DNA of 64,000 bases, taken from sequence record MH752840.1; one strand, written 5' to 3'. The stretch comes from Escherichia phage vB_EcoM-Pr121LW. Every line of letters begins with the position of its first letter. The stretch's first letter is position 1. Position numbers and translations under genes: made by a program. This document shows positions 2,997 to 59,061 of the stretch, piece after piece. Under the pieces are notes generated by a model. It ran no database searches, was not told the DNA's origin, and saw nothing but the letters and a program-made list of their open reading frames with translations.

Positions 2997-3302
2997 TTAT
3001 TCTACAGAGCGTTTGAACAGAATGTCTGCCTCGGACATGTGCTCAACCTCTTCTTCGATTTTAGCTCGACGTTTTTCAGCCTCATATCGAATATCGAACT
3101 CGGTAGCCACCAGAGATTTGATGAATTTAGGAGAATACAGATGATCCTGCTTCTCAACAAGAATGATATCCTTGATGGCATCTTTCAGATCTTTAATCTG
3201 AAGTTGGAGTTCCACCAGTTCTTCGATTGTTTTGCGAAGGCGATCACGCTCTGCAGTGTCAGAAGGAAGAGAGGTGAACAGTTCAACTTTAGATTTAGCC
3301 AT
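2997..3302 (-). CDS. hypothetical coiled-coil protein
   Basis: ORF; charged helical composition; followed by terminator. Confidence 0.4.
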   Translation of the reverse strand: MAKSKVELFTSLPSDTAERDRLRKTIEELVELQLQIKDLKDAIKDIILVEKQDHLYSPKFIKSLVATEFDIRYEAEKRRAKIEEEVEHMSEADILFKRSVE

Positions 3303-3737: not shown

Positions 3738-4001
3738 TCATTTATCCTTGCCGTCAAGAACTTTTTTAAATCTTTCAGGGATATCGCCTGTTCTTAGATA
3801 GCTCATGACCTCACAAGGTTCCCACTTGAATTTCTTACAAAGCAGGGCGGCTGAGATTGTTTCATTGCGAAAAGAAAGGATATTAATATCCCATTCTGAG
3901 AACCCCAACTTCCGAAGGGTAGCTACAGAAATCCTCACCGCAACCCAGCAGCAAAAACATGCAACAAACGCCACTGCTATAACCCATATCAGGATGTTCA
4001 T
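3738..4001 (-). CDS. hypothetical membrane protein (one N-terminal TM helix)
   Basis: Hydrophobic N-terminus ILIWVIAVAFVACFCCWVAV. Confidence 0.35.
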   Translation of the reverse strand: MNILIWVIAVAFVACFCCWVAVRISVATLRKLGFSEWDINILSFRNETISAALLCKKFKWEPCEVMSYLRTGDIPERFKKVLDGKDK

Positions 4002-17242: not shown

Positions 17243-19366
17243 TCAGCAACCACAACTTCCGTAGTGCTTAACCCGTTCTATAACTTCCGCTTGCTTACCT
17301 TTATTGTAAGGACGGGAGTTTGGACTAGACAGGTACCCGGATACACGTCTGATCACACTGATCGTTCCCTCTTCATGGTTTCCACACTCTGGGCATACAA
17401 AGCCTTTAGCTGTTGCACTGAACTCACCAGAAAAACCACACTTGAGACATTTATCCACAGGCTGGTTGATACCAAAATACATAATGTGTTTATATCCGAA
17501 ATCAACAAGAGCTTCCAAAGCATCTAAGTTGTTTTTCAGATTTGGTGTCTCTACGTATCCGATGTTGCCACCAGAGGAGATCATAGCAAAACCTTCCTCA
17601 TACTCCCACTTATCAAAAGGAGAGCTATTGATCCATACTGGCTGATGGAAACTGTTGGTGAGATATTCATGCTCGTGCTTCAACACTTCAGGATATTCAC
17701 GATCCAGACAGGTTGCAGCTTTATAGCATAGACTCTCAGAAGGGGTGCCGTACAAGCTAAACGCTAGTCTACTTTCCTTCTTGTATCGCTCACAAACATC
17801 TCTCATGTGCTGGAGTATTCCAAGAGCTAAAGCCTTGTCACCCTCCCTGCCCAAAATCTGACAGGTTTCATACACACCAATATACCCAATACTGATGGAA
17901 GCGTACCCGTCATAGAAGAGTTTATCAATACTCTCTTCAGGATCCAGGCGAGCAAGAGCGCCTTCACACCACATGATTGGGTTCTGCCCTGCCTTTGTTC
18001 CTTTTAGACGGTTAACCCTTACAAGGTGAGCCTCGTATGCAAGATCCAGGTATTCGTCAAGAACTGCAAAGAAATCAACACCTTCCGTTTTAGCTTTTGC
18101 CGCAATCATTGGCAGGTTAAGGCTAACAACGCCTAAGTTAAATCTACCAAGGTATTTCTCCTCGCCTGTTTCCAAGTCATTGTATTTGCTAAGAAAACTC
18201 CGGCAACCCATGCTCGTTACTTTACCATCTGTCGAGCCTGTCACTTTACGATTTAGTGGAACAGAAACAAAGTCAGGATAAATCCGCTCTGCAGAGCATT
18301 CCAGAGCTAATCGTTTCAAATCATAGTTAGGATCTCCAGGGTTCATGTTGACACCCTCTTCTAGGAAGAACAGCACTTTAGGGAACACAGGTGTGATACG
18401 TTCTTCACCAAGACCCATTTTGTGGACTTTCAAGTAGTTTTTGGTAATCATTCTACCAAAGACCGAGGTATCCAGTCCTAAACTTAATGTGATGAATGGA
18501 GTTTGCCCGTTGACAGAGGTTAACGTATTGATTTGATAGAGCAAAGTCTGCATGCTGTCAAATACGTCTTTATCTGTCATTTGCATTGCAACAGTCTCAG
18601 CATCTGGCAACCAATGTTCCTGGCAAAATTTAAGGTTCTTCTCATAGGTTGCTTCAGCATACTGTGCCAGATAATGATCAATATGGCTCATAGTCTGACC
18701 TCCATATTGAGCACTAGCTACTGCACTAGAGATTTGGCTAAGGATTGTTGTTGCAACCCCTATTGACTTCGGCTTACTGACATGGGCGTTGCCAATGTTG
18801 AATCCGTTTTCCAACATATCTGGATAATTTACCAAACAACAGTTTGTTAACGGACTGATCAAGTAGTCAAGATCATGCACATGGATGAAGCCTTTATTGT
18901 GCTCTTCTGAGACACGGTCTGGCAGGATCTGTGTTGATGCAAGGTGTTTGCTAAGGATGCCTGCAAGCAGGTCACGATGAGTGTGTACATGATTGGTAGG
19001 CTTATTTGCGTTTTCTTTTGTAAATTCATCACAAGTGCGATCCAAGAAGCCACTAATATCTGCAAGCAGTTTTCCACCTGCCTCTCTGTTATTATCTCTT
19101 GTCTGCCTATACTGGATGTATTCTCTGGCTGCGCATTTTAAACCCATATCCATAAGAGCGTCTTCAACAAGGATATGGATATTTTTTACAGAGATCGTGC
19201 ACTGGTCGGTTGGTAGATTGTTAGCAACAACTTCATTAACCGCGCAGGCGATCCGGTAAGCTTCTTCTTCAGTATGTCCAGACTCAAGTAAGGCGGACTC
19301 TGCCGCCTTGATCACCTTAATTCCGTTATAGACCTCTTCTCTACCGTCCCGTTTTACAACTTTCAC
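17243..19366 (-). CDS. nrdD: anaerobic ribonucleoside-triphosphate reductase (class III)
   Basis: 707 aa; C-terminal glycyl-radical region RRVSGYL and C-terminal Cys cluster. Confidence 0.9.
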   Translation of the reverse strand: MKVVKRDGREEVYNGIKVIKAAESALLESGHTEEEAYRIACAVNEVVANNLPTDQCTISVKNIHILVEDALMDMGLKCAAREYIQYRQTRDNNREAGGKLLADISGFLDRTCDEFTKENANKPTNHVHTHRDLLAGILSKHLASTQILPDRVSEEHNKGFIHVHDLDYLISPLTNCCLVNYPDMLENGFNIGNAHVSKPKSIGVATTILSQISSAVASAQYGGQTMSHIDHYLAQYAEATYEKNLKFCQEHWLPDAETVAMQMTDKDVFDSMQTLLYQINTLTSVNGQTPFITLSLGLDTSVFGRMITKNYLKVHKMGLGEERITPVFPKVLFFLEEGVNMNPGDPNYDLKRLALECSAERIYPDFVSVPLNRKVTGSTDGKVTSMGCRSFLSKYNDLETGEEKYLGRFNLGVVSLNLPMIAAKAKTEGVDFFAVLDEYLDLAYEAHLVRVNRLKGTKAGQNPIMWCEGALARLDPEESIDKLFYDGYASISIGYIGVYETCQILGREGDKALALGILQHMRDVCERYKKESRLAFSLYGTPSESLCYKAATCLDREYPEVLKHEHEYLTNSFHQPVWINSSPFDKWEYEEGFAMISSGGNIGYVETPNLKNNLDALEALVDFGYKHIMYFGINQPVDKCLKCGFSGEFSATAKGFVCPECGNHEEGTISVIRRVSGYLSSPNSRPYNKGKQAEVIERVKHYGSCGC

Positions 19367-19641
19367 TTTTTCTCTCCAAAACCATTCTTAACAAAAGAGA
19401 TGAAATCGTCGGCACCACCTACATGGACACTATCAAGATCGCTTTCTAAGAAGATCTGCGGTAACGTTCTTGGGACGATTGGACTACACTTCTCAATAAG
19501 CTCTTCTTTTGTGTATCCCTCTCCAAGTGTCTTATATACAAAAGGCAGACCTTTACTGACTGCAAATTCTTTTGCTCTTACACAATGTGGGCAGTTATCT
19601 TTACCGTAAATAATAAAGAAAAAAGATTTTTCACAGCTCAT
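19363..19641 (-). CDS. glutaredoxin/NrdH-like redoxin
   Basis: CPHC active-site motif in a ~90-aa protein between nrdB and nrdD. Confidence 0.7.
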   Translation of the reverse strand: MSCEKSFFFIIYGKDNCPHCVRAKEFAVSKGLPFVYKTLGEGYTKEELIEKCSPIVPRTLPQIFLESDLDSVHVGGADDFISFVKNGFGEKK

Positions 19642-20772: not shown

Positions 20773-23088
20773 TTACAGTGCACAGCTTTCGCAATACGGA
20801 TCTTCAACTGAACTATCTGCAATCAAAGGATAGTTCTTTCTGGTTTCATCTTCAGCCTGTTTCTTGGCATGAAGTTCCTCTGCCAAGGAGTCACCAGCAC
20901 CAACCCTGGAGTTTAAATAATACCATGTCTTCATCCCGAATTTAGTGGCACGGATAAGGTACCCTAGCTGCTCCTTCATTGAAATTTTACCATCTTTCAA
21001 CTTGGTGTAGTCTATGTATAAATCCGCGCTGATTGCCTGGCCTGTGAATTTTTGAATCACAGCATACATATCGATCATGTCGTTAGTATCAACGTCCCAA
21101 GCCGAAGTGTAATACTCTTTCAGCTCATCGTATTCAGGAACGATAAACAGCACCTGCCCTTGTGGCGACTTTTTAAAGATAATGTGCTCACGGACAGGAT
21201 AAACCCCGTTAGTGGTGTTTGTTGCCAGCGAAGAGCTTTCATTAGGCATATATGCTTCAAGAACGCTATTACGTAGCCCACCATTTTCAATGATTTCTTT
21301 ACGTAACCCTTCCCAATCCTGTTTAAGAGAAGGATCTTTCACCACGCTATCGACCTCTTTGTTATAGGTGTCGATTGGTAACCAACCTTCTGGATATTTT
21401 GTTTTATGCATCCACTCGCAGACACCACGCTCTTTTGCCAACCGTAAACTTGCCTTATGCAAGCTGTAGCTGTGAAGTTCTGCAAGATCGTGAACGAGCT
21501 GTTTACTTTCAGGAGATCCGTAAGTAACCTTGTGGCTGGCAATAAAATGTGCAACATTGGTAAGGCCAACCCCGATGGATCTGCGTTTTTTAACTGTGCT
21601 TTCCATATTTTCATACGGATATGTCATGATTTCCATAACATTGTCAATCATAAGCACCGTGTAGTATGCAACATCCTCATACTCCTCTGGAGTAACCCTT
21701 CCAGCTACAAGGGATGACAGGAAGCACAATGCAACCTCTCCATCATCAGCATCGTACTTGAAGATATTACGCATATCTGAATAGCCTTTTGTCGGGAGGG
21801 CTATTTCTGCACACAGGTTACTTGAATAGATCACATCTTTAAAAGGTGTATGTCTATTCATCTCATCTGTCCAGTATACATACAGCCTACCCACCTCAGT
21901 ACGCTGCGTGATCAGTTCAACAGCAAGATCTCTGGCTCGGATCCATGTTTTAGGAATACTGTCATCTTTAGCAATACGATCAACCTCTGCATCAAACTCC
22001 TCCATAGACATGGTGAAGATACCCTCATGCAGTTGAGGAGCGTGCTTATAAGAAACAAGAATCCAATCTAAATTCTTAGCCACACGGTTGATAAACGACC
22101 TATTAATACCGATGGAATAGTCCATGGTGTTGATTCTTTTTGAAGCAACAGTCATAGGGTTTCTCAAACGGATTAGCTCATCAATCTGCGGGTCCAGTGC
22201 AAGGAATGATACTGTTGCAGAACCGCCACGTGATTGTTGTCTGTTCTCCTTAACACCAGCATCAATACCTCGATAATACGGAATCTTACCCATATGTTTA
22301 ATAGTGTTACCACGAACACCATCGCCTGCAGATCTTGAGGATAAGTAGTAGCCGATGCCTGCTTGGTTAACCGTCATCGTGTACGCAACTTCACGTGCCA
22401 CACCAATAGATTTTGCTGTATCGTCAGCTTTTATTACACAACAAGATGCATACCCTGTCTTACCTGTGCGCAGCCCGTTTAAGTACGGTGTCGGAGCATT
22501 GATCTTTAAGTCGGACAGATAATTGTATAGTTTTACAACATCGTCGATACGACGTTCTTTCGGCATATTCTTCATGACAGCCATTGCTATCCCCATAAAC
22601 ATCATCTGGGGAGATTCAAACAGGGTGTCTTTAAGAGTATCCTTGATCCCGTATTTGTCGCGAAACTGTTTAAGGACTGCATAGCCGTAACCGAGATCTT
22701 TACTGTGGTCAATAACAGCGCCTAAAGTATTTAGCTCGGTAAAGCTATAACCCATATCCTCCCAATACCCTTTCTCAACCATGGTATTGTAAAATGATGG
22801 TAATGAAGGGATCTTTGTAAACCCTCCAAAAGCCTCTTTATAAATCTGACCAATAAGAACACGACCAGCCATACGGGAATGTGCTTCGTCTTTACGGCTA
22901 ACACAGGAGTCTATGATAGCTTGGTTAACTTCTTTGGTCGTACATCCATCATACAGTCGTTTGTATGCATCCAGTGCAATGTGTGACCAATTGCCGTTAC
23001 CGTCGTCACCGAAAATAGCTGCCTTATTTAAACGTTCTGGATCGAATGCCACTTCACATCCGTTGCTTTTAATTACCTTGGTGATCAA
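20773..23088 (-). CDS. nrdA: ribonucleotide reductase class I alpha subunit
   Basis: 771 aa; active-site SSNLCAEI motif; N-terminal ATP-cone-like region. Confidence 0.9.
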   Translation of the reverse strand: MITKVIKSNGCEVAFDPERLNKAAIFGDDGNGNWSHIALDAYKRLYDGCTTKEVNQAIIDSCVSRKDEAHSRMAGRVLIGQIYKEAFGGFTKIPSLPSFYNTMVEKGYWEDMGYSFTELNTLGAVIDHSKDLGYGYAVLKQFRDKYGIKDTLKDTLFESPQMMFMGIAMAVMKNMPKERRIDDVVKLYNYLSDLKINAPTPYLNGLRTGKTGYASCCVIKADDTAKSIGVAREVAYTMTVNQAGIGYYLSSRSAGDGVRGNTIKHMGKIPYYRGIDAGVKENRQQSRGGSATVSFLALDPQIDELIRLRNPMTVASKRINTMDYSIGINRSFINRVAKNLDWILVSYKHAPQLHEGIFTMSMEEFDAEVDRIAKDDSIPKTWIRARDLAVELITQRTEVGRLYVYWTDEMNRHTPFKDVIYSSNLCAEIALPTKGYSDMRNIFKYDADDGEVALCFLSSLVAGRVTPEEYEDVAYYTVLMIDNVMEIMTYPYENMESTVKKRRSIGVGLTNVAHFIASHKVTYGSPESKQLVHDLAELHSYSLHKASLRLAKERGVCEWMHKTKYPEGWLPIDTYNKEVDSVVKDPSLKQDWEGLRKEIIENGGLRNSVLEAYMPNESSSLATNTTNGVYPVREHIIFKKSPQGQVLFIVPEYDELKEYYTSAWDVDTNDMIDMYAVIQKFTGQAISADLYIDYTKLKDGKISMKEQLGYLIRATKFGMKTWYYLNSRVGAGDSLAEELHAKKQAEDETRKNYPLIADSSVEDPYCESCAL

Positions 23089-53910: not shown

Positions 53911-55287
53911 ATGCCATATTTAGATAAAGTGGTAGATGTTACAGTTAACCTCGGAACCCAGCCTATCGACACTGTAGGTTTCGAAACTCCCCTGTTCATC
54001 GCTATCCACAATAACTTTACTGAGCGAGCTCGCGTATATGCGGAGCTGGATCAGATGGTGGAAGATGGTTTCGCACAAGGCTCTGCAGCGTATGAGTTTG
54101 CAGCAAAAGCTTTTGGTGGTGTATTCCCTCCACAATACGTTATGATCGGCAGACAGGCCAAAGAAAAGACCACTGTAGATTTTAAAGGTATTGCTGCCGC
54201 AGCTGATACCGATGTTGTAATGACTATTGCAAAAGGTGACTACAATACTGCCTTGATAGTCCCTATCTCTGGTGGAACAGGGGCAACCCAGATCGCAGAG
54301 GCAATGAAGGAAAAAATTGAGGCTGATGATAGCTTAGACGGTATCACCGTACAGGCCGAAGAAGGTGTTATCACCATCACTGGTGATTGTACTGTTGGTT
54401 ATCATACTGGTAACTACACGATCAAAAACATTGCTAATAGTGAAAAACCTTCTACCGTGATCGACAAGATCAACGCTGAGCAGGATAATTGGTACTTCTT
54501 GTGCCATGAAGACCACACAGATATTGAAGCATGTGCTAAGTGGGCTCAGGCTAACTACAAACTGCATGTCTACTCTACTGCAGAAGATGTGACTGGCAAA
54601 GACAGCAACATTGCCACTAAACTGAAAGCTGCAAAATATGACAGTATTGGTATGTACGACCCTCGCGCCGACAAAGACTTCCCAGAGGGCGGTATTATCG
54701 GTGCTATGGCATCCAACGATCCGTCCTACGGCGACAGCTTACACTTAAAACAGATGCCTGGTGTTCTTGCACCATCCCTGACCTTGACCCAGCGCATGGC
54801 GATTTGGGAGAACAACATTAACTTCTACAGAACAATCAACGGTGTTGGTGCTTTCTGGGAAGGTAAATGTGCTTCTGGTCAGTATGCAGATGCTATCCGC
54901 TTCGCCCACTGGATTAAATTCAGATCCGAAGAGTCTATGTTTGGATACATGCATCGCCGATCTAATATGGGTCTGAGCATGAAGATGTCTGATGATGATC
55001 TTCCGGTTATCAAGTCTGTCCTGATGAACAACCCAATTAATACTGGCATTAAGAATGGTGCGATCCTGACAGGTTTCGACGAAGACAATAATGTATTCTA
55101 CGACCCGATCATCACAGTTCCTAAACGTGCAGAAATCCCAACCAATCAGTTGGCTGCTCGTGTTCTGGAAGGTGTGAAAGTAGAACTGGTGTACAATAAC
55201 GCCCTGCACTTCGTTCGTATCCGGATCAACGTCCTTCTGGACAAAGTTGGTTCTAAATCCACCAATGCTGTTGCAATGACTGAATAA
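53911..55287 (+). CDS. putative tail sheath protein
   Basis: 458 aa; strong codon bias; followed by 157-aa tube candidate, chaperones and tape measure. Confidence 0.45.
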   Translation: MPYLDKVVDVTVNLGTQPIDTVGFETPLFIAIHNNFTERARVYAELDQMVEDGFAQGSAAYEFAAKAFGGVFPPQYVMIGRQAKEKTTVDFKGIAAAADTDVVMTIAKGDYNTALIVPISGGTGATQIAEAMKEKIEADDSLDGITVQAEEGVITITGDCTVGYHTGNYTIKNIANSEKPSTVIDKINAEQDNWYFLCHEDHTDIEACAKWAQANYKLHVYSTAEDVTGKDSNIATKLKAAKYDSIGMYDPRADKDFPEGGIIGAMASNDPSYGDSLHLKQMPGVLAPSLTLTQRMAIWENNINFYRTINGVGAFWEGKCASGQYADAIRFAHWIKFRSEESMFGYMHRRSNMGLSMKMSDDDLPVIKSVLMNNPINTGIKNGAILTGFDEDNNVFYDPIITVPKRAEIPTNQLAARVLEGVKVELVYNNALHFVRIRINVLLDKVGSKSTNAVAMTE

Positions 55288-55297
55288 GGAAGCCTAG

Positions 55298-55771
55298 ATG
55301 GAAACTCAAATTTTAACTCCTTATGCGTATGACCCTAAAAAGGTCAAACTGTATCTGATGCAGCAGCGTGTCACTGGCTTCGCTGCTGACACCAAGATTG
55401 TTGTTTCAAGAAACGAAGACAACATTTATCCTCACGTCGGTGTGGATGGTGAAATGTCTGCGGCTCTGTCCCGTAACCAATCTGGTGTTATGACTGTGTC
55501 TTTGCAGAACACTTCTGTATGGAACGCTTACCTTTCTGACTGGCAGAAACAGGCATCGATTACTGGTCTGGTATTCTTCCCAGTTCTGCTGGAAGGTAGC
55601 CAGGGCCCTGGTATTTCCACAATTGGTTGGATCCAGAAACAGCCTGACCTGACTTACGGAACCGAAGTAGGTCAGCTGGACTGGGATATCGGTATTCTGG
55701 ATGCATGGCTCAACCGTGATAACATCACTGGTGCTCTTACTGGCCTCGCAGGTCTTGCAGGTATTATCTAA
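55298..55771 (+). CDS. putative tail tube protein
   Basis: 157 aa, strong codon bias, terminator downstream. Confidence 0.4.
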   Translation: METQILTPYAYDPKKVKLYLMQQRVTGFAADTKIVVSRNEDNIYPHVGVDGEMSAALSRNQSGVMTVSLQNTSVWNAYLSDWQKQASITGLVFFPVLLEGSQGPGISTIGWIQKQPDLTYGTEVGQLDWDIGILDAWLNRDNITGALTGLAGLAGII

Positions 55772-55788
55772 GGGCACACTTTAGCATA

Positions 55789-55815
55789 AGCCTCACCTTC
55801 GGGTGGGGCTTTTTG
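55789..55815 (+). terminator. rho-independent terminator
   Basis: CCTCACC-TTCG-GGTGGGG hairpin then CTTTTT. Confidence 0.65.
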
Positions 55816-55861
55816 CTTTTATGGTTTTGACACACGTTCTTGAATTGCTTGAAAGGTTAAA

Positions 55862-55890
55862 TTGACAATGCACCATAATCATGGTAAAAT
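55862..55890 (+). promoter_or_regulatory. sigma70-like promoter TTGACA-17-TAAAAT
   Basis: Consensus hexamers with 17-nt spacer upstream of tail chaperone gene. Confidence 0.5.
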
Positions 55891-55933
55891 ACACAAATAT
55901 GGTGCACAACATGACTAATAAGGATGCTATAAA

Positions 55934-56407
55934 ATGGCTATAAACTTTAGACCTACAACAGAGATTGATTTAGCAGGGCACAACTTTGTGATCACCCACT
56001 GGGGACCGATGAAAGCAATGAAAAACATGCCTAAAATCGGTAAGATTGTGGCTGTCCCGCTAGGTGCTATCGGTGGATCTATTATCTCTGGTGGTCAGAA
56101 TATGGCAGAGGTCCTTCCTACTGCTCTGGCTTACCTGTTCCAAGAACTTGATGATAGCTCTATTGAAGAGTTATTTAAAATCTTGTTCGAAGATATTACC
56201 GTAGATGGTGTGGATAAGCTTAACCCAGATGTTGTGTTTGCAGGGCATCTGCTGGAGATGATTAAGCTGGCAGGTAAGGTTCTGGAGGTTAACTACGGCT
56301 GTTTTTTCACACAAGACGGTTTAGGAAGCCTTCTGGAGATGTTACAGCAGATGGGTATGATTCAGCAGGTGAACAACCTGGATCAGACTCCGGAAGAGCA
56401 GGAATAA
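55934..56407 (+). CDS. tail assembly chaperone (zero-frame product)
   Basis: Position directly upstream of tape measure; slippery site near 3' end. Confidence 0.5.
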   Translation: MAINFRPTTEIDLAGHNFVITHWGPMKAMKNMPKIGKIVAVPLGAIGGSIISGGQNMAEVLPTALAYLFQELDDSSIEELFKILFEDITVDGVDKLNPDVVFAGHLLEMIKLAGKVLEVNYGCFFTQDGLGSLLEMLQQMGMIQQVNNLDQTPEEQE

Positions 56408-56667
56408 GCAAGGTTGTTGTGAGGGCCAGTGAGTGGGCAGCCAAGAACAGTTCACTCAACTGGTTCGACTTTCTTTGGTGCAGGGTGCTCAAGAATTTCA
56501 AAGGGGAAAATTTTGAATCGCTAAATCTTGCAGATATGGCGTATTTCCTGAAGCTCTGTGAGTATCTTGATATTGAAGAATTCCTAGATACCGTCCAAAA
56601 CAGGGAAATGGAGCGGGAGCAGAAGGCTGCCGCAGCTGCTGCGAAAGCTAAGCGCAGGAGAGGATAA
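56293..56667 (+). CDS. -1 frame extension of tail assembly chaperone (fusion via programmed frameshift at 56302-56308)
   Basis: T_TTT_TTC heptamer in the zero frame; -1 frame open from 56293 to 56667; conserved chaperone architecture. Confidence 0.45.
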   Translation, partial: LRLFFHTRRFRKPSGDVTADGYDSAGEQPGSDSGRAGISKVVVRASEWAAKNSSLNWFDFLWCRVLKNFKGENFESLNLADMAYFLKLCEYLDIEEFLDTVQNREMEREQKAAAAAAKAKRRRG

Positions 56668-56672
56668 TCTAA

Positions 56673-56708
56673 GGGCCGGATTCCTTTTCTGGGATCTGGC
56701 CCTTTTTA
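56673..56708 (+). terminator. putative rho-independent terminator
   Basis: GGGCC...GGCCC stem followed by TTTTTATT. Confidence 0.45.
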
Positions 56709-56721
56709 TTATGAGGAAACC

Positions 56722-59061
56722 ATGGCTACAAACAAAATAGTTGCCACAACAGTCAACAAGATTGGCTTTGAGATAGAGAACTCCTCCTACAAAAAAGCTG
56801 TAGAGAAAATTCGCAGTATTGGGAGGGAGTTCAGGAAACTAGGCGAGGATTTTAACTCAGCCAACCCCATGGGTAGATGGCAGGCGGTAGCTGTTAAAAC
56901 CCAGCAGACAATGCAGAGGGTTGCCAGACAGCAATCCCAGGCAAATGCTAAACTGCACAGGGAGAGCGTAACACAGGCTAAGAAAGAGGCTGCAGTAAGG
57001 GCTGCAATAGAACGTAGGGAGAATGCGAGACGTAAACAAGCTGTAGGTAATCTTACCGCTAAAAATCCAGAAATGGTTAGGATGCGTAAGTTCTATCAGC
57101 AGCAAGCTAAAGAGGCCAAAAAGGCTGCCAAATCTGCACCAGTGTCTTACGGTGGTTATAAGGCACCTAAGGCAAGAGTTCTGGCTAATGCCAAATCTTT
57201 CAAATATATCCCCGGTAACCCTAATATGGGTGGTGTGGCTTCCGACCCTAATCTTGTGAAAGCGCAGACAGCCGCTATGAATCGTTATCATAGACAGCTA
57301 AGAAGGGACGGTAAGGCTGGCATGGATAATAGGCTTATGTCGGATCGTGAGGCAAGGAGAACCCACCTCTACAACTCAGCGATAAGACTTTCTGCCAAGT
57401 ATGGTGCCGGATTCCGTGGAAGCTTGCCAGGATACTCAGAGTTAGAGTCCAGGTTTGCTCGTGGGGAGATGAAAAAGTCAACATTTAACGCCCACTTGTC
57501 AGCGCTGCAGTCTGGATTTAAAAGCGCCACCAGTCAAACGCTTACACTAGGCGATGCCATGAGAGACCTACGTAGGTCTGTTATTAATGCAACAGCTGCG
57601 TATACGGCTTTTTCTGGATTTACTGCTGTTAACAGATCCGGTCACATGATGGAGGGTGCAAGTGCTGCTCTTACTGCTGTTACTGGAGATCCAAACAAAG
57701 CCAACAGTGAGGTTGCGTTTGTCCAGCAAGAGGCTATGCGTCTTGGTTTTGATCTCAAATCTGGTCTTCAAGGTTACGCCCAGATGGCGGTAAACGCCAA
57801 AAACCAGATGACAAATCAGGAGGTTCATGAGCTGTTCTCTGCATACTCCCAGTATGCTGCTGCTTATGGTGCCGATGAGGTAAAATACCAGCGTGGTATC
57901 ATGGCAATCCAACAGATGCTAGGCAAGGGACAAGTAATGTCCGAAGAACTGAAGCAACAACTTGCTGAAGCATTGCCTGGTGCATACGAACCTTTTATCA
58001 AGGCCACCAAAGAGGCTTTTGGTCTTTCTGAACTCTCCATGGATCAGTTCATGGACATGATGAAGAAAGGTGAGGTTAAAACAGCTAAGATCATGAAGTA
58101 TGTGGCTAAGTACATGAACGAGGCATCTGCAGCTGGTTATGAAAGAATGCAGAAGTCTAACGTACTGGCAGAAAACAGACTGAAAACCTTCATCGAACTG
58201 TCTCGTCAGAAACTGTTCACCCGTTGGGCAGATGAATTGACAGAGTTCTACTACACCCTGATCCGCACAGGTGAGACTCTGCAATTTGTGTGGGATGCCT
58301 CAGGTGATTTTGTTAGCGGATTTATTAGAGGCCTTAACTGGGTTGTTGGTGAGCTAAACAACACTATAGTTAAGATCCGCCTGTTTTTCCTTGAGTGGGG
58401 CATCAAATGGGGGTTCATAACAGCTAAGACGAAGGAGTATTCCGAAGAGCTGCATGACACCTTCAGCACTGCCAAATGGGCAGGGTATGCTGCTGCCATT
58501 ATGCTGGTAGTGCACGCTCTTACAAAAGGGTTTGTCATGGCATCCATGCTTGTAAAAACTTTTAAGTTCCTTAGCACCCTGAAAGGTGCAGCTGGAGCTG
58601 CTGGCGCTGGTGCCATCACCACAGGGGGTTCTGTAGGTGGCGCAGCAGGAAAAGGTGGTGGAATAAAAGCACCAGGCATCAAAGGTACCGGTATGTTAGG
58701 CAAGTTGGGGATACTTGGGACATTATTGAGTGCTGGGGCTATGGTTAATGATCGTTTCAACCCTTTCAGTGAGAGAAATCAACAGCTGGATACTATTAGT
58801 GACATGATCCGCAAAGATATAGTATCGGGTGGCAACGGGTTTGTTAATCCTCTAGACACTTTACCTGGTGGAACCCTTCCGCTACCCGGTGGTCCTGGTT
58901 TTGCCTCTCAACTGAGAACCATGGAAATGTTACCTTTGGAGATCAGCGATGGTAAAATCACCATTTCGATAGATGAAGGTGAGTTTAGCAAAATACTTGA
59001 TGCAAAACTTGAGTGGGAGAATAGCAAAGATATTAACTTTATGTCAACAGATCTTTGGTAA
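56722..59061 (+). CDS. tail tape measure protein
   Basis: 779 aa, helix-rich, glycine-rich segment GAAGAAGAGAITTGGSVGGAAGKGGG, follows chaperone pair. Confidence 0.65.
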   Translation: MATNKIVATTVNKIGFEIENSSYKKAVEKIRSIGREFRKLGEDFNSANPMGRWQAVAVKTQQTMQRVARQQSQANAKLHRESVTQAKKEAAVRAAIERRENARRKQAVGNLTAKNPEMVRMRKFYQQQAKEAKKAAKSAPVSYGGYKAPKARVLANAKSFKYIPGNPNMGGVASDPNLVKAQTAAMNRYHRQLRRDGKAGMDNRLMSDREARRTHLYNSAIRLSAKYGAGFRGSLPGYSELESRFARGEMKKSTFNAHLSALQSGFKSATSQTLTLGDAMRDLRRSVINATAAYTAFSGFTAVNRSGHMMEGASAALTAVTGDPNKANSEVAFVQQEAMRLGFDLKSGLQGYAQMAVNAKNQMTNQEVHELFSAYSQYAAAYGADEVKYQRGIMAIQQMLGKGQVMSEELKQQLAEALPGAYEPFIKATKEAFGLSELSMDQFMDMMKKGEVKTAKIMKYVAKYMNEASAAGYERMQKSNVLAENRLKTFIELSRQKLFTRWADELTEFYYTLIRTGETLQFVWDASGDFVSGFIRGLNWVVGELNNTIVKIRLFFLEWGIKWGFITAKTKEYSEELHDTFSTAKWAGYAAAIMLVVHALTKGFVMASMLVKTFKFLSTLKGAAGAAGAGAITTGGSVGGAAGKGGGIKAPGIKGTGMLGKLGILGTLLSAGAMVNDRFNPFSERNQQLDTISDMIRKDIVSGGNGFVNPLDTLPGGTLPLPGGPGFASQLRTMEMLPLEISDGKITISIDEGEFSKILDAKLEWENSKDINFMSTDLW

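What the first reader, a model, noticed from the sequence alone, without database searches (positions are those of the whole stretch)
55934..56667. Programmed -1 frameshift site in the tail assembly chaperone gene
The heptamer T_TTT_TTC (56302-56308) lies in the zero frame ~100 nt before the stop of 55934-56407, and the -1 frame is open from 56293 to 56667, directly upstream of the tape measure gene. This matches the conserved chaperone frameshift of tailed phages.
Basis: partly seen in the sequence, partly recalled or inferred. Interest (0 to 1): 0.4.

Follow-up and report, generated by a model that had tools for sequence, protein, structure and literature searches.

The report
Tail chaperone −1 frameshift, rV5-like phage
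An rV5-like E. coli phage almost certainly makes a second, longer tail-assembly chaperone by letting a small share of ribosomes slip back one base at T_TTT_TTC; this is the standard trick of tailed phages, but none of the public records I inspected for this phage group annotates it as a frameshift.

Summary
The window is a Vequintavirus (98.7% identical to Escherichia phage LL12). Its gene order is sheath, tube, tail assembly chaperone (TAC, 55934-56407, Pfam PF21822), an 82-aa "hypothetical" ORF, then tape measure.

T_TTT_TTC (56302-56308) is the only in-phase X_XXY_YYZ heptamer in the TAC gene. It lies inside a 115-nt overlap with a −1 frame that stays open to 56667.

- **Heptamer conservation:** it is invariant in 41 distinct relatives down to 28% protein identity. 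Codons 123-125 show 0% synonymous differences, against about 53% elsewhere in the gene.
- **Slip-site replacement:** two outlying lineages carry other slippery heptamers, G_GGA_AAG and A_AAT_TTT.
- **−1 frame is coding:** it carries a conserved R-F-R motif written with different codons, a variable linker and a conserved C-terminal domain.
- **No alternative start:** 42 of 43 distinct relatives have no ATG, GTG or TTG upstream of the conserved domain.
- **No stimulator found:** there is no conserved downstream RNA structure.

No inspected record annotates a join, and no fused protein appears in a 5.8-billion-cluster search. This is a new, unannotated member of a textbook mechanism. The frameshift product itself has not been shown. 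Interest is low to moderate.

The parts
55298..55771 (+). Tail tube gene (context). It is the upstream neighbour and, by analogy with lambda, the presumed partner of the T domain.
   Evidence: Pfam KPP10_Orf10 7e-9 and phrog_280 2e-41. Annotated as tail tube protein in BASEL-collection records.
55788..55811 (+). Terminator-like hairpin plus T tract after the tube gene.
   Evidence: 10-bp stem with 6 GC pairs, followed by TTTGCTTTT. A terminator is annotated at the same place in phage Murica.
55862..55890 (+). Sigma-70-like promoter (TTGACA, 17 nt, TAAAAT, with TG) 44 nt upstream of the chaperone start.
   Evidence: 11 of 12 consensus matches. The rV5 RefSeq record annotates 'Sigma70-type promoter; P51' at the equivalent place.
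55934..56407 (+). Zero-frame tail assembly chaperone ORF (the 'G' or TAC-N product, 157 aa).
   Evidence: PF21822 Phage_TAC_15 3.3e-23 and phrog_3840 6.5e-69. In the AF2 model the folded core covers residues 8-125 and confidence collapses after residue 126.
56284..56288 (+). SD-like GGAGG 13 nt upstream of the heptamer; a possible but unproven stimulator.
   Evidence: GGAGG, GAGG or GGAG lies 13-14 nt upstream in 28 of 39 distinct relatives and is absent in 11. The distance falls within the 6-17 nt window used by Sharma et al. 2014 (PMC4066793).
56302..56308 (+). Slippery heptamer T_TTT_TTC, with tRNA-Phe in both the P and A sites.
   Evidence: It is in phase. It is invariant in 41 distinct relatives: TTT 41/41, TTC 41/41, and the preceding codon always ends in T (TGT, CCT, AGT or TCT). 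All 117 Vequintavirus records are at least 99% identical over 56281-56330.
56308..56407 (+). Dual-coding overlap: the zero-frame C-terminal tail of G and the −1-frame start of the extension (HTRRFRKPSG...).
   Evidence: Synonymous variation is depressed over codons 120-132. The −1-frame R-F-R motif (56317-56325) is kept with different codons in different lineages.
56308..56667 (+). −1-frame extension (119 codons plus stop). Joined to codons 1-125 it gives a predicted 244-aa fusion ('GT' or TAC-NC).
   Evidence: An extension of 74-98 aa beyond the G stop is present in every relative.
56338..56403 (+). Gly/Ser/Asp-rich linker in the −1 frame; it varies in length and sequence between lineages.
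   Evidence: Alignment of fusion proteins. Almost no start codon occurs in it in any relative.
56404..56664 (+). Conserved C-terminal ('T') domain: ISKVVVRASEWAAKNSSLNWFDFLW... It begins upstream of the annotated GTG at 56419.
   Evidence: It matches phrog_10409, phrog_8811 and phrog_16039, all labelled 'unknown function'. It was annotated 'hypothetical protein' or not at all in nearly all of 60 sampled records, and never as a chaperone.
56419..56421 (+). GTG used as the start of a separate 82-aa CDS in most public annotations; probably not the functional start.
   Evidence: Only AAGG precedes it, 5 nt upstream. The codon is Leu or Gln in other genera.
56671..56704 (+). Terminator-like hairpin between the end of the extension and the tape measure gene.
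   Evidence: 14-bp stem with 8 GC pairs, followed by a T tract. Annotated as a Rho-independent terminator in rV5 and Murica.
56722..59061 (+). Tape measure protein gene (context); the presumed client of the chaperones.
   Evidence: Pfam TMP_3 3.7e-18; phrog_5255 E=0.

Best explanation
This is a programmed −1 ribosomal frameshift of the lambda G/GT type.

1. Ribosomes start at ATG 55934 and translate the 125-residue folded chaperone domain.
2. With tRNA-Phe on UUU (P site) and UUC (A site) at 56303-56308, a minority of ribosomes slip back one base onto UUU-UUU and continue in the −1 frame from CAC 56308 to TAA 56665-67. This gives a 244-aa fusion made of the G domain, an RFR motif, a Gly/Ser-rich linker and a conserved roughly 85-aa T domain.
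3. The majority stay in frame and finish the 157-aa short form.
4. By analogy with lambda, many copies of the short form plus a few of the long form coat the tape measure protein. The T domain then recruits the tube protein to start tail-tube polymerisation, and neither chaperone form remains in the virion.

Shown here: the sequence anatomy, TAC family membership, selection on the heptamer, and protein-level conservation of the −1 frame starting right after the slip site. Inferred: that slippage occurs, its efficiency, and the roles of the two products. The site seems to work without a conserved downstream structure, possibly helped by an upstream SD-like GGAGG.
For: **Gene identity and position.** The gene is a TAC between tube and tape measure.

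**The heptamer.**
- It is the only in-phase X_XXY_YYZ in the gene and lies inside the 115-nt overlap.
- It is present in 13 of 14 GenBank loci from 28-100% protein identity, in 32 of 32 distinct IMG/VR loci and in 4 of 4 metagenome loci.
- It is also present in the Ounavirinae phage Zyzzx.

**Selection on the nucleotides.**
- F124 is TTT in 41/41 and F125 is TTC in 41/41, while other conserved Phe columns are mixed (17/22 and 26/14).
- The preceding Cys, Pro or Ser codon always ends in T.
- Pairwise synonymous difference is 0.00 at codons 123-125 (2,045 comparisons), against 0.52-0.55 upstream.

**Slip-site replacement.** Rheinheimera phages carry G_GGA_AAG three codons downstream, and Vibrio 5P1b carries A_AAT_TTT. 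Both feed the homologous −1 ORF.

**The −1 frame is translated.**
- R-F-R after the slip site is written as CGG TTT AGG, CGG TTT CGC or AGG TTC AGA in different lineages. In the window lineage the zero-frame residue changed (F to L) while the −1 RFR was kept.
- 42 of 43 distinct relatives have no ATG, GTG or TTG between the slip site and 10 residues before the KNSSL motif. The one exception is a GTG without an SD.
- Annotated starts of the small ORF are scattered and cut into the conserved domain.

**Other support.**
- U_UU.U_UU.C is among the efficient E. coli motifs, and UUUUUUU is avoided in genes (PMC4066793).
- The AF2 model places the slip site exactly at the end of the folded G core.
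- Sister families were recently argued to use the same device with a GTTTTT motif (PMC12846349).
Against: - There is no direct evidence for the fusion protein. The rV5 proteomics paper mentions neither a frameshift nor a chaperone.
- No conserved downstream hairpin or pseudoknot was found. Alifold gave 0 pairs, the local fold had z = +0.32, and a long-range helix at 56328-56398 had only z = −1.8 and is not conserved.
- The upstream SD-like element is missing in 11 of 39 distinct relatives.
- In the window itself a GTG with a weak AAGG 5 nt upstream exists, so some independent initiation cannot be excluded.
- A run of six T could also allow rare RNA-polymerase slippage.
Confidence: 0.9

Rival explanations
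1. These are two independent genes. The small ORF is translated only from its own GTG at 56419, by initiation or by termination-reinitiation after the TAA 12 nt upstream, and the T_TTT_TTC is incidental.
For: GTG 56419 is preceded by AAGG 5 nt upstream. Most public records annotate it this way. The GTG is conserved within the genus, but so is everything else at 94-99% identity.
Against: - The GTG lies inside the conserved 'ISKVV-V-RA' block and is Leu or Gln in other genera.
- 42 of 43 distinct relatives have no NTG codon upstream of the conserved domain.
- The −1 frame is conserved as protein for about 37 codons upstream of the GTG, including the RFR motif with synonymous codon changes.
- The heptamer is frozen at three synonymous sites.
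Confidence: 0.04
2. The shift is made by transcriptional slippage. RNA polymerase adds one extra U at the T6 run, so a minority of mRNAs carry the chaperone and the extension in a single frame.
For: A one-base insertion in the run gives the same fusion. Only a few percent of long form is needed in lambda (PMC5009743). Runs of T are known to be slippage-prone.
Against: - The run is only six bases.
- The seventh base is C in 41/41 relatives, although TTT-TTT would lengthen the run without changing the protein.
- The motif is always in the ribosomal X_XXY_YYZ phase.
- Two outlying lineages replaced it with the non-homopolymeric heptamers G_GGA_AAG and A_AAT_TTT.
Confidence: 0.05
3. It is a chance juxtaposition or a sequencing artefact: a spurious open −1 frame, or an indel in the T run of this assembly.
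For: Homopolymer runs are common sites of sequencing error.
Against: The same 50-nt segment is at least 99% identical in 117 independent genome records. The two-frame arrangement holds in every lineage examined. No in-frame fused homologue exists among 73 hits from 5.8 billion protein clusters.
Confidence: 0.01

Closest known systems
Phage lambda gpG/gpGT tail assembly chaperones (Levin, Hendrix & Casjens 1993; Xu, Hendrix & Duda 2004, 2013, 2014, as cited in PMC5009743)
   Same: Two overlapping ORFs sit immediately upstream of the tape measure gene. [quoted passage not shown] The long form is the whole chaperone domain plus a C-terminal extension. No conserved downstream structure is seen here, and from memory lambda's site also needs none. 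Rheinheimera relatives even use lambda's heptamer, G_GGA_AAG.
   Different: The heptamer here is T_TTT_TTC. The phage is a large contractile-tailed myovirus, so the partner is a tube protein inside a sheath. The chaperone belongs to Pfam PF21822, and I did not test for sequence similarity to lambda gpG. The short form keeps a conserved 32-aa tail of its own after the slip site. The product ratio is unknown.
TAC-N/TAC-NC −1 frameshift proposed for Vandenendeviridae (Pakpunavirus Adele) and Andersonviridae (PMC12846349, Dec 2025)
   Same: The virion module is related and syntenic. The downstream ORF is routinely annotated 'hypothetical protein'. The −1 frame is uninterrupted across all genomes, and a conserved GTTTTT motif lies at the 3' end of TAC-N. 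The window has G-TTTTTT-C. I found T_TTT_TTC in the Ounavirinae phage Zyzzx and the RFR motif in Pseudomonas phage KIL3b.
   Different: In the passages retrieved, that paper applied its TAC-locus analysis to Vandenendeviridae and Andersonviridae, not to Vequintavirinae or Stephanstirmvirinae. In KIL3b the site is an imperfect G_GTT_TTT rather than a full heptamer. tblastn with the window or Rheinheimera chaperone does not reach those families. The claims there are also purely computational.
Myovirus chaperone frameshifts: P2 E/E+E' and the Mu tail chaperone pair (recalled from Christie et al. 2002 and Xu et al. 2004; not checked here)
   Same: These are contractile-tailed phages with a −1 shift on a T-rich heptamer (P2: T_TTT_TTG, from memory) between the tube and tape measure genes.
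   Different: Sequence relationship was not tested. The last base of the heptamer differs. The P2 case is experimentally shown, while this one is not.
dnaX and IS3/IS911-type bacterial −1 frameshift signals (PMC4066793)
   Same: The slippery-heptamer logic is the same. U_UU.U_UU.C is used by some IS elements and ranks among the efficient E. coli motifs. An SD-like element lies 13 nt upstream, as in dnaX.
   Different: Those signals depend on a downstream hairpin or pseudoknot. None is conserved here, and the SD-like element is not universal.

Membership tests
Conserved tail-assembly-chaperone frameshift of tailed phages (lambda G/GT type) | Two overlapping ORFs located between the major tail/tube gene and the tape measure gene. 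| tested here: met
   Tube 55298-55771, TAC 55934-56407, −1 ORF open to 56667, TMP 56722-59061.
Conserved tail-assembly-chaperone frameshift of tailed phages (lambda G/GT type) | The upstream ORF is a tail assembly chaperone. | tested here: met
   [not shown]
Conserved tail-assembly-chaperone frameshift of tailed phages (lambda G/GT type) | A slippery sequence in the correct phase inside the overlap, leading into the longer frame. | tested here: met
   T_TTT_TTC at 56302-56308 is the only in-phase heptamer of the gene.
Conserved tail-assembly-chaperone frameshift of tailed phages (lambda G/GT type) | The slip site and the open shifted frame are conserved across diverged relatives beyond what the protein sequence requires. 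| tested here: met
   41 of 41 distinct sequences keep TTT-TTC with a preceding T. Synonymous difference is 0.00 there against about 0.53 elsewhere. Alternative heptamers occur in two outlying lineages.
Conserved tail-assembly-chaperone frameshift of tailed phages (lambda G/GT type) | The downstream segment lacks its own conserved translation start. | tested here: met
   42 of 43 distinct relatives have no NTG codon upstream of the conserved domain. The window's GTG is Leu or Gln elsewhere.
Conserved tail-assembly-chaperone frameshift of tailed phages (lambda G/GT type) | A fusion protein is made at a low, fixed ratio to the short form. | not testable with these tools
   This needs mass spectrometry, western blots or a reporter assay. 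No proteomic mention was found.
Conserved tail-assembly-chaperone frameshift of tailed phages (lambda G/GT type) | Both products are required for tail assembly and absent from the virion. | not testable with these tools
   There is only an indirect hint: the phiTE (Certrevirus) virion structure paper never uses the word 'chaperone'.
dnaX/IS3-type −1 frameshift signal | A stimulatory hairpin or pseudoknot 5-9 nt downstream of the heptamer. | tested here: not met
   The local fold has z = +0.32. RNAalifold finds 0 pairs across 11 lineages. There is no Rfam match.
dnaX/IS3-type −1 frameshift signal | An SD-like element 6-17 nt upstream. | tested here: inconclusive
   GGAGG lies 13 nt upstream in the window, and an SD-like element is present in 28 of 39 distinct relatives. 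It coincides with Leu-Glu-Val codons, so coding constraint could explain it.
Programmed transcriptional slippage | A long homopolymer run (typically 8-9 or more A/T, from memory of Baranov et al. 2005) whose length rather than phase is conserved. | tested here: not met
   The run is six T. The seventh base is invariably C, the phase is invariant, and the replacement heptamers are not homopolymers.

The most novel reading that the evidence does not exclude
The roughly 36-nt block frozen at synonymous sites (AAC TAC GGC TGT TTT TTC ... GGT TTx, codons 120-132) may be more than a heptamer plus dual coding. It could be a compact, structure-free frameshift stimulator, for example through upstream mRNA or E-site context, the SD-like GGAGG, or the nascent or −1-encoded Arg-Phe-Arg peptide. 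Such an element would be shared by several large myovirus groups (Vequintavirinae, Stephanstirmvirinae, Ounavirinae, Flaumdravirus). That would explain how a fixed low ratio is set without any RNA structure.
Probability: 0.12. Interest if true: 0.5.

Novelty: new member of a known kind. Interest (0 to 1): 0.3.

Why it matters
The practical value is in annotation.

- None of the roughly 85 GenBank/RefSeq records whose annotation I inspected joins the two ORFs. They come from the 490 records with a homologous chaperone, spanning Vequintavirinae, Stephanstirmvirinae and neighbouring groups, many of them therapy candidates.
- The T segment is instead listed as a stray 'hypothetical protein', or as nothing.
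- Three PHROG families of 'unknown function' (10409, 8811, 16039) appear to be fragments of it.
- Correct annotation gives a 244-aa long chaperone and removes a false small gene.

Biologically, this extends the conserved chaperone frameshift to another major clade of contractile-tailed phages. It also gives a clean example of slip-site turnover (T_TTT_TTC, G_GGA_AAG, A_AAT_TTT) and of a site that seems to need no RNA structure. It does not change any principle.

Tried and rejected
- **Downstream stimulatory structure.** A 52-nt fold had z = +0.32. A 102-nt fold showed a long-range helix with z = −1.8 that is not conserved. RNAalifold over 11 lineages gave 0 pairs. Rejected as a conserved feature.
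- **Rfam scan of 55700-56800.** Only a chance GcvB match at E = 0.55.
- **PDB sequence search with the fusion.** No hits.
- **Search for naturally fused or already annotated long forms.** Among 5.8 billion protein clusters, all 73 hits are 149-159 aa and cover only the G part.
- **Reaching Felix O1-like or Pakpunavirus chaperones by tblastn.** This failed from both the window and the Rheinheimera protein. I reached neighbours only through the tube protein.
- **Literature.** I found no paper in the held library that describes this frameshift for rV5-like, phi92-like or phAPEC8-like phages. Subscription-only papers could not be searched.
- **Second T_TTT_TTC in the window.** It lies in ORF 19362-19641(−) at codon 6, far from any overlap. 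Dismissed.

Full report
**What the window is.** The region 53911-59061 is 98.7% identical to Escherichia phage LL12 and 94-95% identical to more than 100 other Vequintavirus (rV5-like) genomes. The local gene order is:
- tail sheath, 53911-55287 (DUF3383; phrog_205)
- tail tube, 55298-55771 (KPP10_Orf10; phrog_280)
- a 157-aa ORF, 55934-56407, which is a tail assembly chaperone (Pfam Phage_TAC_15 PF21822, 3.3e-23; phrog_3840, 6.5e-69)
- an 82-aa ORF, 56419-56667, with no Pfam match and only 'unknown function' PHROGs
- the 779-aa tape measure protein, 56722-59061

**Checking the observation.** The sequence is exactly as described. Zero-frame codons are TGT TTT TTC at 56300-56308, so T_TTT_TTC (56302-56308) is in the X_XXY_YYZ phase. 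The −1 frame has TAA at 56290-92 and is then open to the TAA at 56665-67. The overlap with the chaperone ORF is 115 nt, and the heptamer ends 97 nt before the zero-frame stop. A −1 slip would join 125 zero-frame codons to 119 −1-frame codons and give a 244-aa protein.

**Is it more than chance?** In-phase XXXYYYZ heptamers occur at 0.0030 per codon in the window's genes, so about 0.11 are expected in this overlap. T_TTT_TTC occurs twice in 18,161 codons. Seven of 146 ORFs combine a long −1 overlap with a long extension. Only this one, plus a small ORF lying inside the 771-aa ORF 20773-23088, has an in-phase heptamer in the overlap.

**Comparative evidence for the heptamer.** I collected homologous loci at three levels:
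- GenBank phages spanning 28-100% protein identity: PVP-SE1, Klebsiella, Erwinia, W70, PBES02, phAPEC8, phi92-like Eryne and FKP3, Aeromonas phiA009, Rheinheimera Barba5A and 18-1-2
- IMG/VR: 36 loci, 32 of them distinct
- metagenome contigs

Every locus has a −1 frame that overlaps the 3' end of the chaperone gene by 85-157 nt and extends 74-98 aa beyond its stop. All except Rheinheimera have T_TTT_TTC in phase at the homologous position. The IMG/VR scan was seeded on the peptide around 'FF', so the presence of Phe-Phe there is not independent. The codon choice is.

Across 41 distinct sequences, F124 is TTT in 41/41 and F125 is TTC in 41/41. The preceding codon always ends in T, whether it encodes Cys (TGT), Pro (CCT) or Ser (AGT, TCT). 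Other conserved Phe columns are mixed (17 TTC/22 TTT and 26/14), as are Tyr, Gly, Pro and Asp columns. The pairwise synonymous-difference fraction is 0.52-0.55 over codons 1-115. It falls to 0.00 at codons 123-125 (2,045 comparisons) and 0.27 at codons 126-135, then recovers to about 0.5 by codon 134. Within the genus, the 50 nt around the site are at least 99% identical in 117 records.

**Slip-site turnover.**
- Rheinheimera phages lack the Phe-Phe. They carry lambda's G_GGA_AAG three codons downstream, feeding the same −1 peptide (CLTSGK|VFRIPSG against CFF|HERRFRRPSG).
- Vibrio phage 5P1b, found through its tube protein, has A_AAT_TTT at the equivalent place, and its −1 frame runs to the end of its annotated 'hypothetical protein'.
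- The Felix O1-like Hafnia phage Zyzzx has T_TTT_TTC.
- Pseudomonas phage KIL3b has an imperfect G_GTT_TTT.

Replacement of one slippery heptamer by another argues that the shift itself is what selection maintains.

**The −1 frame is translated from the slip site.** The aligned fusion proteins show three parts after the slip: a conserved R-F-R-(K/R)-P-S-G segment, a Gly/Ser/Asp-rich linker of variable length, and a conserved C-terminal domain (ISKVVxRAxxYAxKNSSLxWFDYLW...).

The R-F-R motif is written CGG TTT AGG in the window, CGG TTT CGC in PVP-SE1 and AGG TTC AGA in KIL3b. That is synonymous variation in the −1 frame. In the window lineage the zero-frame residue changed (Phe to Leu) while the −1 RFR was retained.

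The GTG at 56419 that most records use as a start falls inside the conserved block (ISKVV-V-RA) and is Leu or Gln in other genera. Of 43 distinct relatives, 42 have no ATG, GTG or TTG anywhere between the slip site and ten residues before the KNSSL motif. The single exception is a GTG without a Shine-Dalgarno sequence. Annotated starts of the small ORF in other genera are scattered and truncate the conserved domain to 43-60 aa.

**Stimulatory elements.** I found no conserved downstream structure.
- The 52 nt after the site fold no better than shuffles (z = +0.32).
- A long-range helix (56328-38 with 56388-98) gives z = −1.8 but is not conserved.
- RNAalifold over 11 lineages predicts no pairs.
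- Rfam has nothing.

An SD-like GGAGG lies 13 nt upstream. GGAGG, GAGG or GGAG sits at 13-14 nt in 28 of 39 distinct relatives, but it coincides with Leu-Glu-Val codons and is absent from whole genera. Sharma et al. 2014 place U_UU.U_UU.C among the efficient E. coli heptamers (H_HH.U_UU.Y), list it among motifs with more than 0.1% shifting without a stimulator, and note that UUUUUUU is avoided in genes (PMC4066793). This fits a low-level, structure-independent shift and explains why the last base is kept as C.

**Transcription context.** The chaperone pair is bracketed by terminator-like hairpins at 55788-55811 and 56671-56704. It is preceded by an 11/12 sigma-70-like promoter at 55862-55890. 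The rV5 and Murica records annotate matching promoter and terminators.

**State of knowledge.** None of the inspected GenBank or RefSeq records joins the two ORFs.
- LL12, Murica, JLBYU08, PVP-SE1, phAPEC8 and others list two separate CDS.
- The rV5 reference record starts ORF50 at a CTG three bases before the heptamer, as a separate overlapping CDS.
- In 60 records sampled across 279, the T region is labelled 'hypothetical protein' in most, unannotated in others, and never annotated as a chaperone.
- A search of 5.8 billion protein clusters with the fusion returned 73 hits, all 149-159 aa and covering only the G half. No fused homologue, natural or annotated, turned up.
- The rV5 genome/proteome paper mentions neither a frameshift nor a chaperone, and the phiTE virion structure paper does not mention a chaperone.
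- A December 2025 paper argues, computationally, for the same device with a GTTTTT motif in the related Vandenendeviridae and Andersonviridae (PMC12846349).

**Verdict.** The rivals are independent initiation at the GTG (0.04), transcriptional slippage (0.05) and artefact (0.01), and the comparative data disfavour each. This is a new, so far unannotated member of a textbook class rather than a new mechanism. What is missing is direct detection of the 244-aa product and a measurement of its proportion.

Noticed in passing
L056 (NC_011041 rV5) 719-1087, equivalent to window 56299-56667: The rV5 reference record annotates ORF50 as a separate CDS that starts at a CTG three bases before the heptamer and overlaps the chaperone gene by 109 nt. 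The annotators evidently saw the long −1 ORF but did not call a frameshift.
   Followed up: yes
window 55788-55811, 55862-55890, 56671-56704: The chaperone pair looks like its own small transcription unit: a terminator after the tube gene, a near-consensus sigma-70 promoter with an extended −10, and another terminator before the tape measure gene. This may help set the ratio of chaperone and tape measure to sheath and tube.
   Followed up: partly
L011 (Rheinheimera Barba5A) 1530-1536; L060 (Vibrio 5P1b) 3155-3161; L059 (Pseudomonas KIL3b) about 3918-3924: Different lineages use different slip sites at the homologous spot: G_GGA_AAG, A_AAT_TTT and an imperfect G_GTT_TTT. All lead into homologous −1 extensions. 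In Barba5A a reverse-strand 'DNA binding protein' gene also sits between the extension and the tape measure gene.
   Followed up: partly
L009, L012, L013 (phAPEC8, Eryne, FKP3) at the slip site: Stephanstirmvirinae have C_CCT_TTT_TTC. This is two in-phase slippery heptamers (C_CCT_TTT and T_TTT_TTC) overlapping by four bases, which may raise efficiency.
   Followed up: no
GenBank MG0656xx 'Campylobacter phage' records: About 20 records labelled Campylobacter phage with host C. jejuni are 94-100% identical to E. coli rV5-like and phi92-like phages. They are probably mislabelled or contaminant assemblies.
   Followed up: no
L052 1-1397 and L053 1-1444 (human-gut metagenome relatives, 74% chaperone identity): A large extra gene (512-621 aa, DUF723) sits immediately upstream of the chaperone gene where the window has only the promoter region. 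It is possibly a mobile or homing-endonuclease-like insertion.
   Followed up: no
window 56419-56667; PHROG families 10409, 8811, 16039: Three PHROG families of 'unknown function' match the small ORF and appear to be fragments of the chaperone T domain split by inconsistent start calls.
   Followed up: partly
L061 (deep-sea thermophilic phage D6E) 2609-3528: There is an unannotated 920-nt gap between the tube and tape measure genes. It contains an 87-aa ORF (MAFQPKQKEF...) that is probably an unannotated chaperone.
   Followed up: no
[not shown]
   Followed up: no
window 19362-19641 (− strand): A second in-phase T_TTT_TTC sits at codon 6 of a 92-aa ORF upstream of the 707-aa ORF. It is not inside any frame overlap, so it was judged incidental.
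   Followed up: partly
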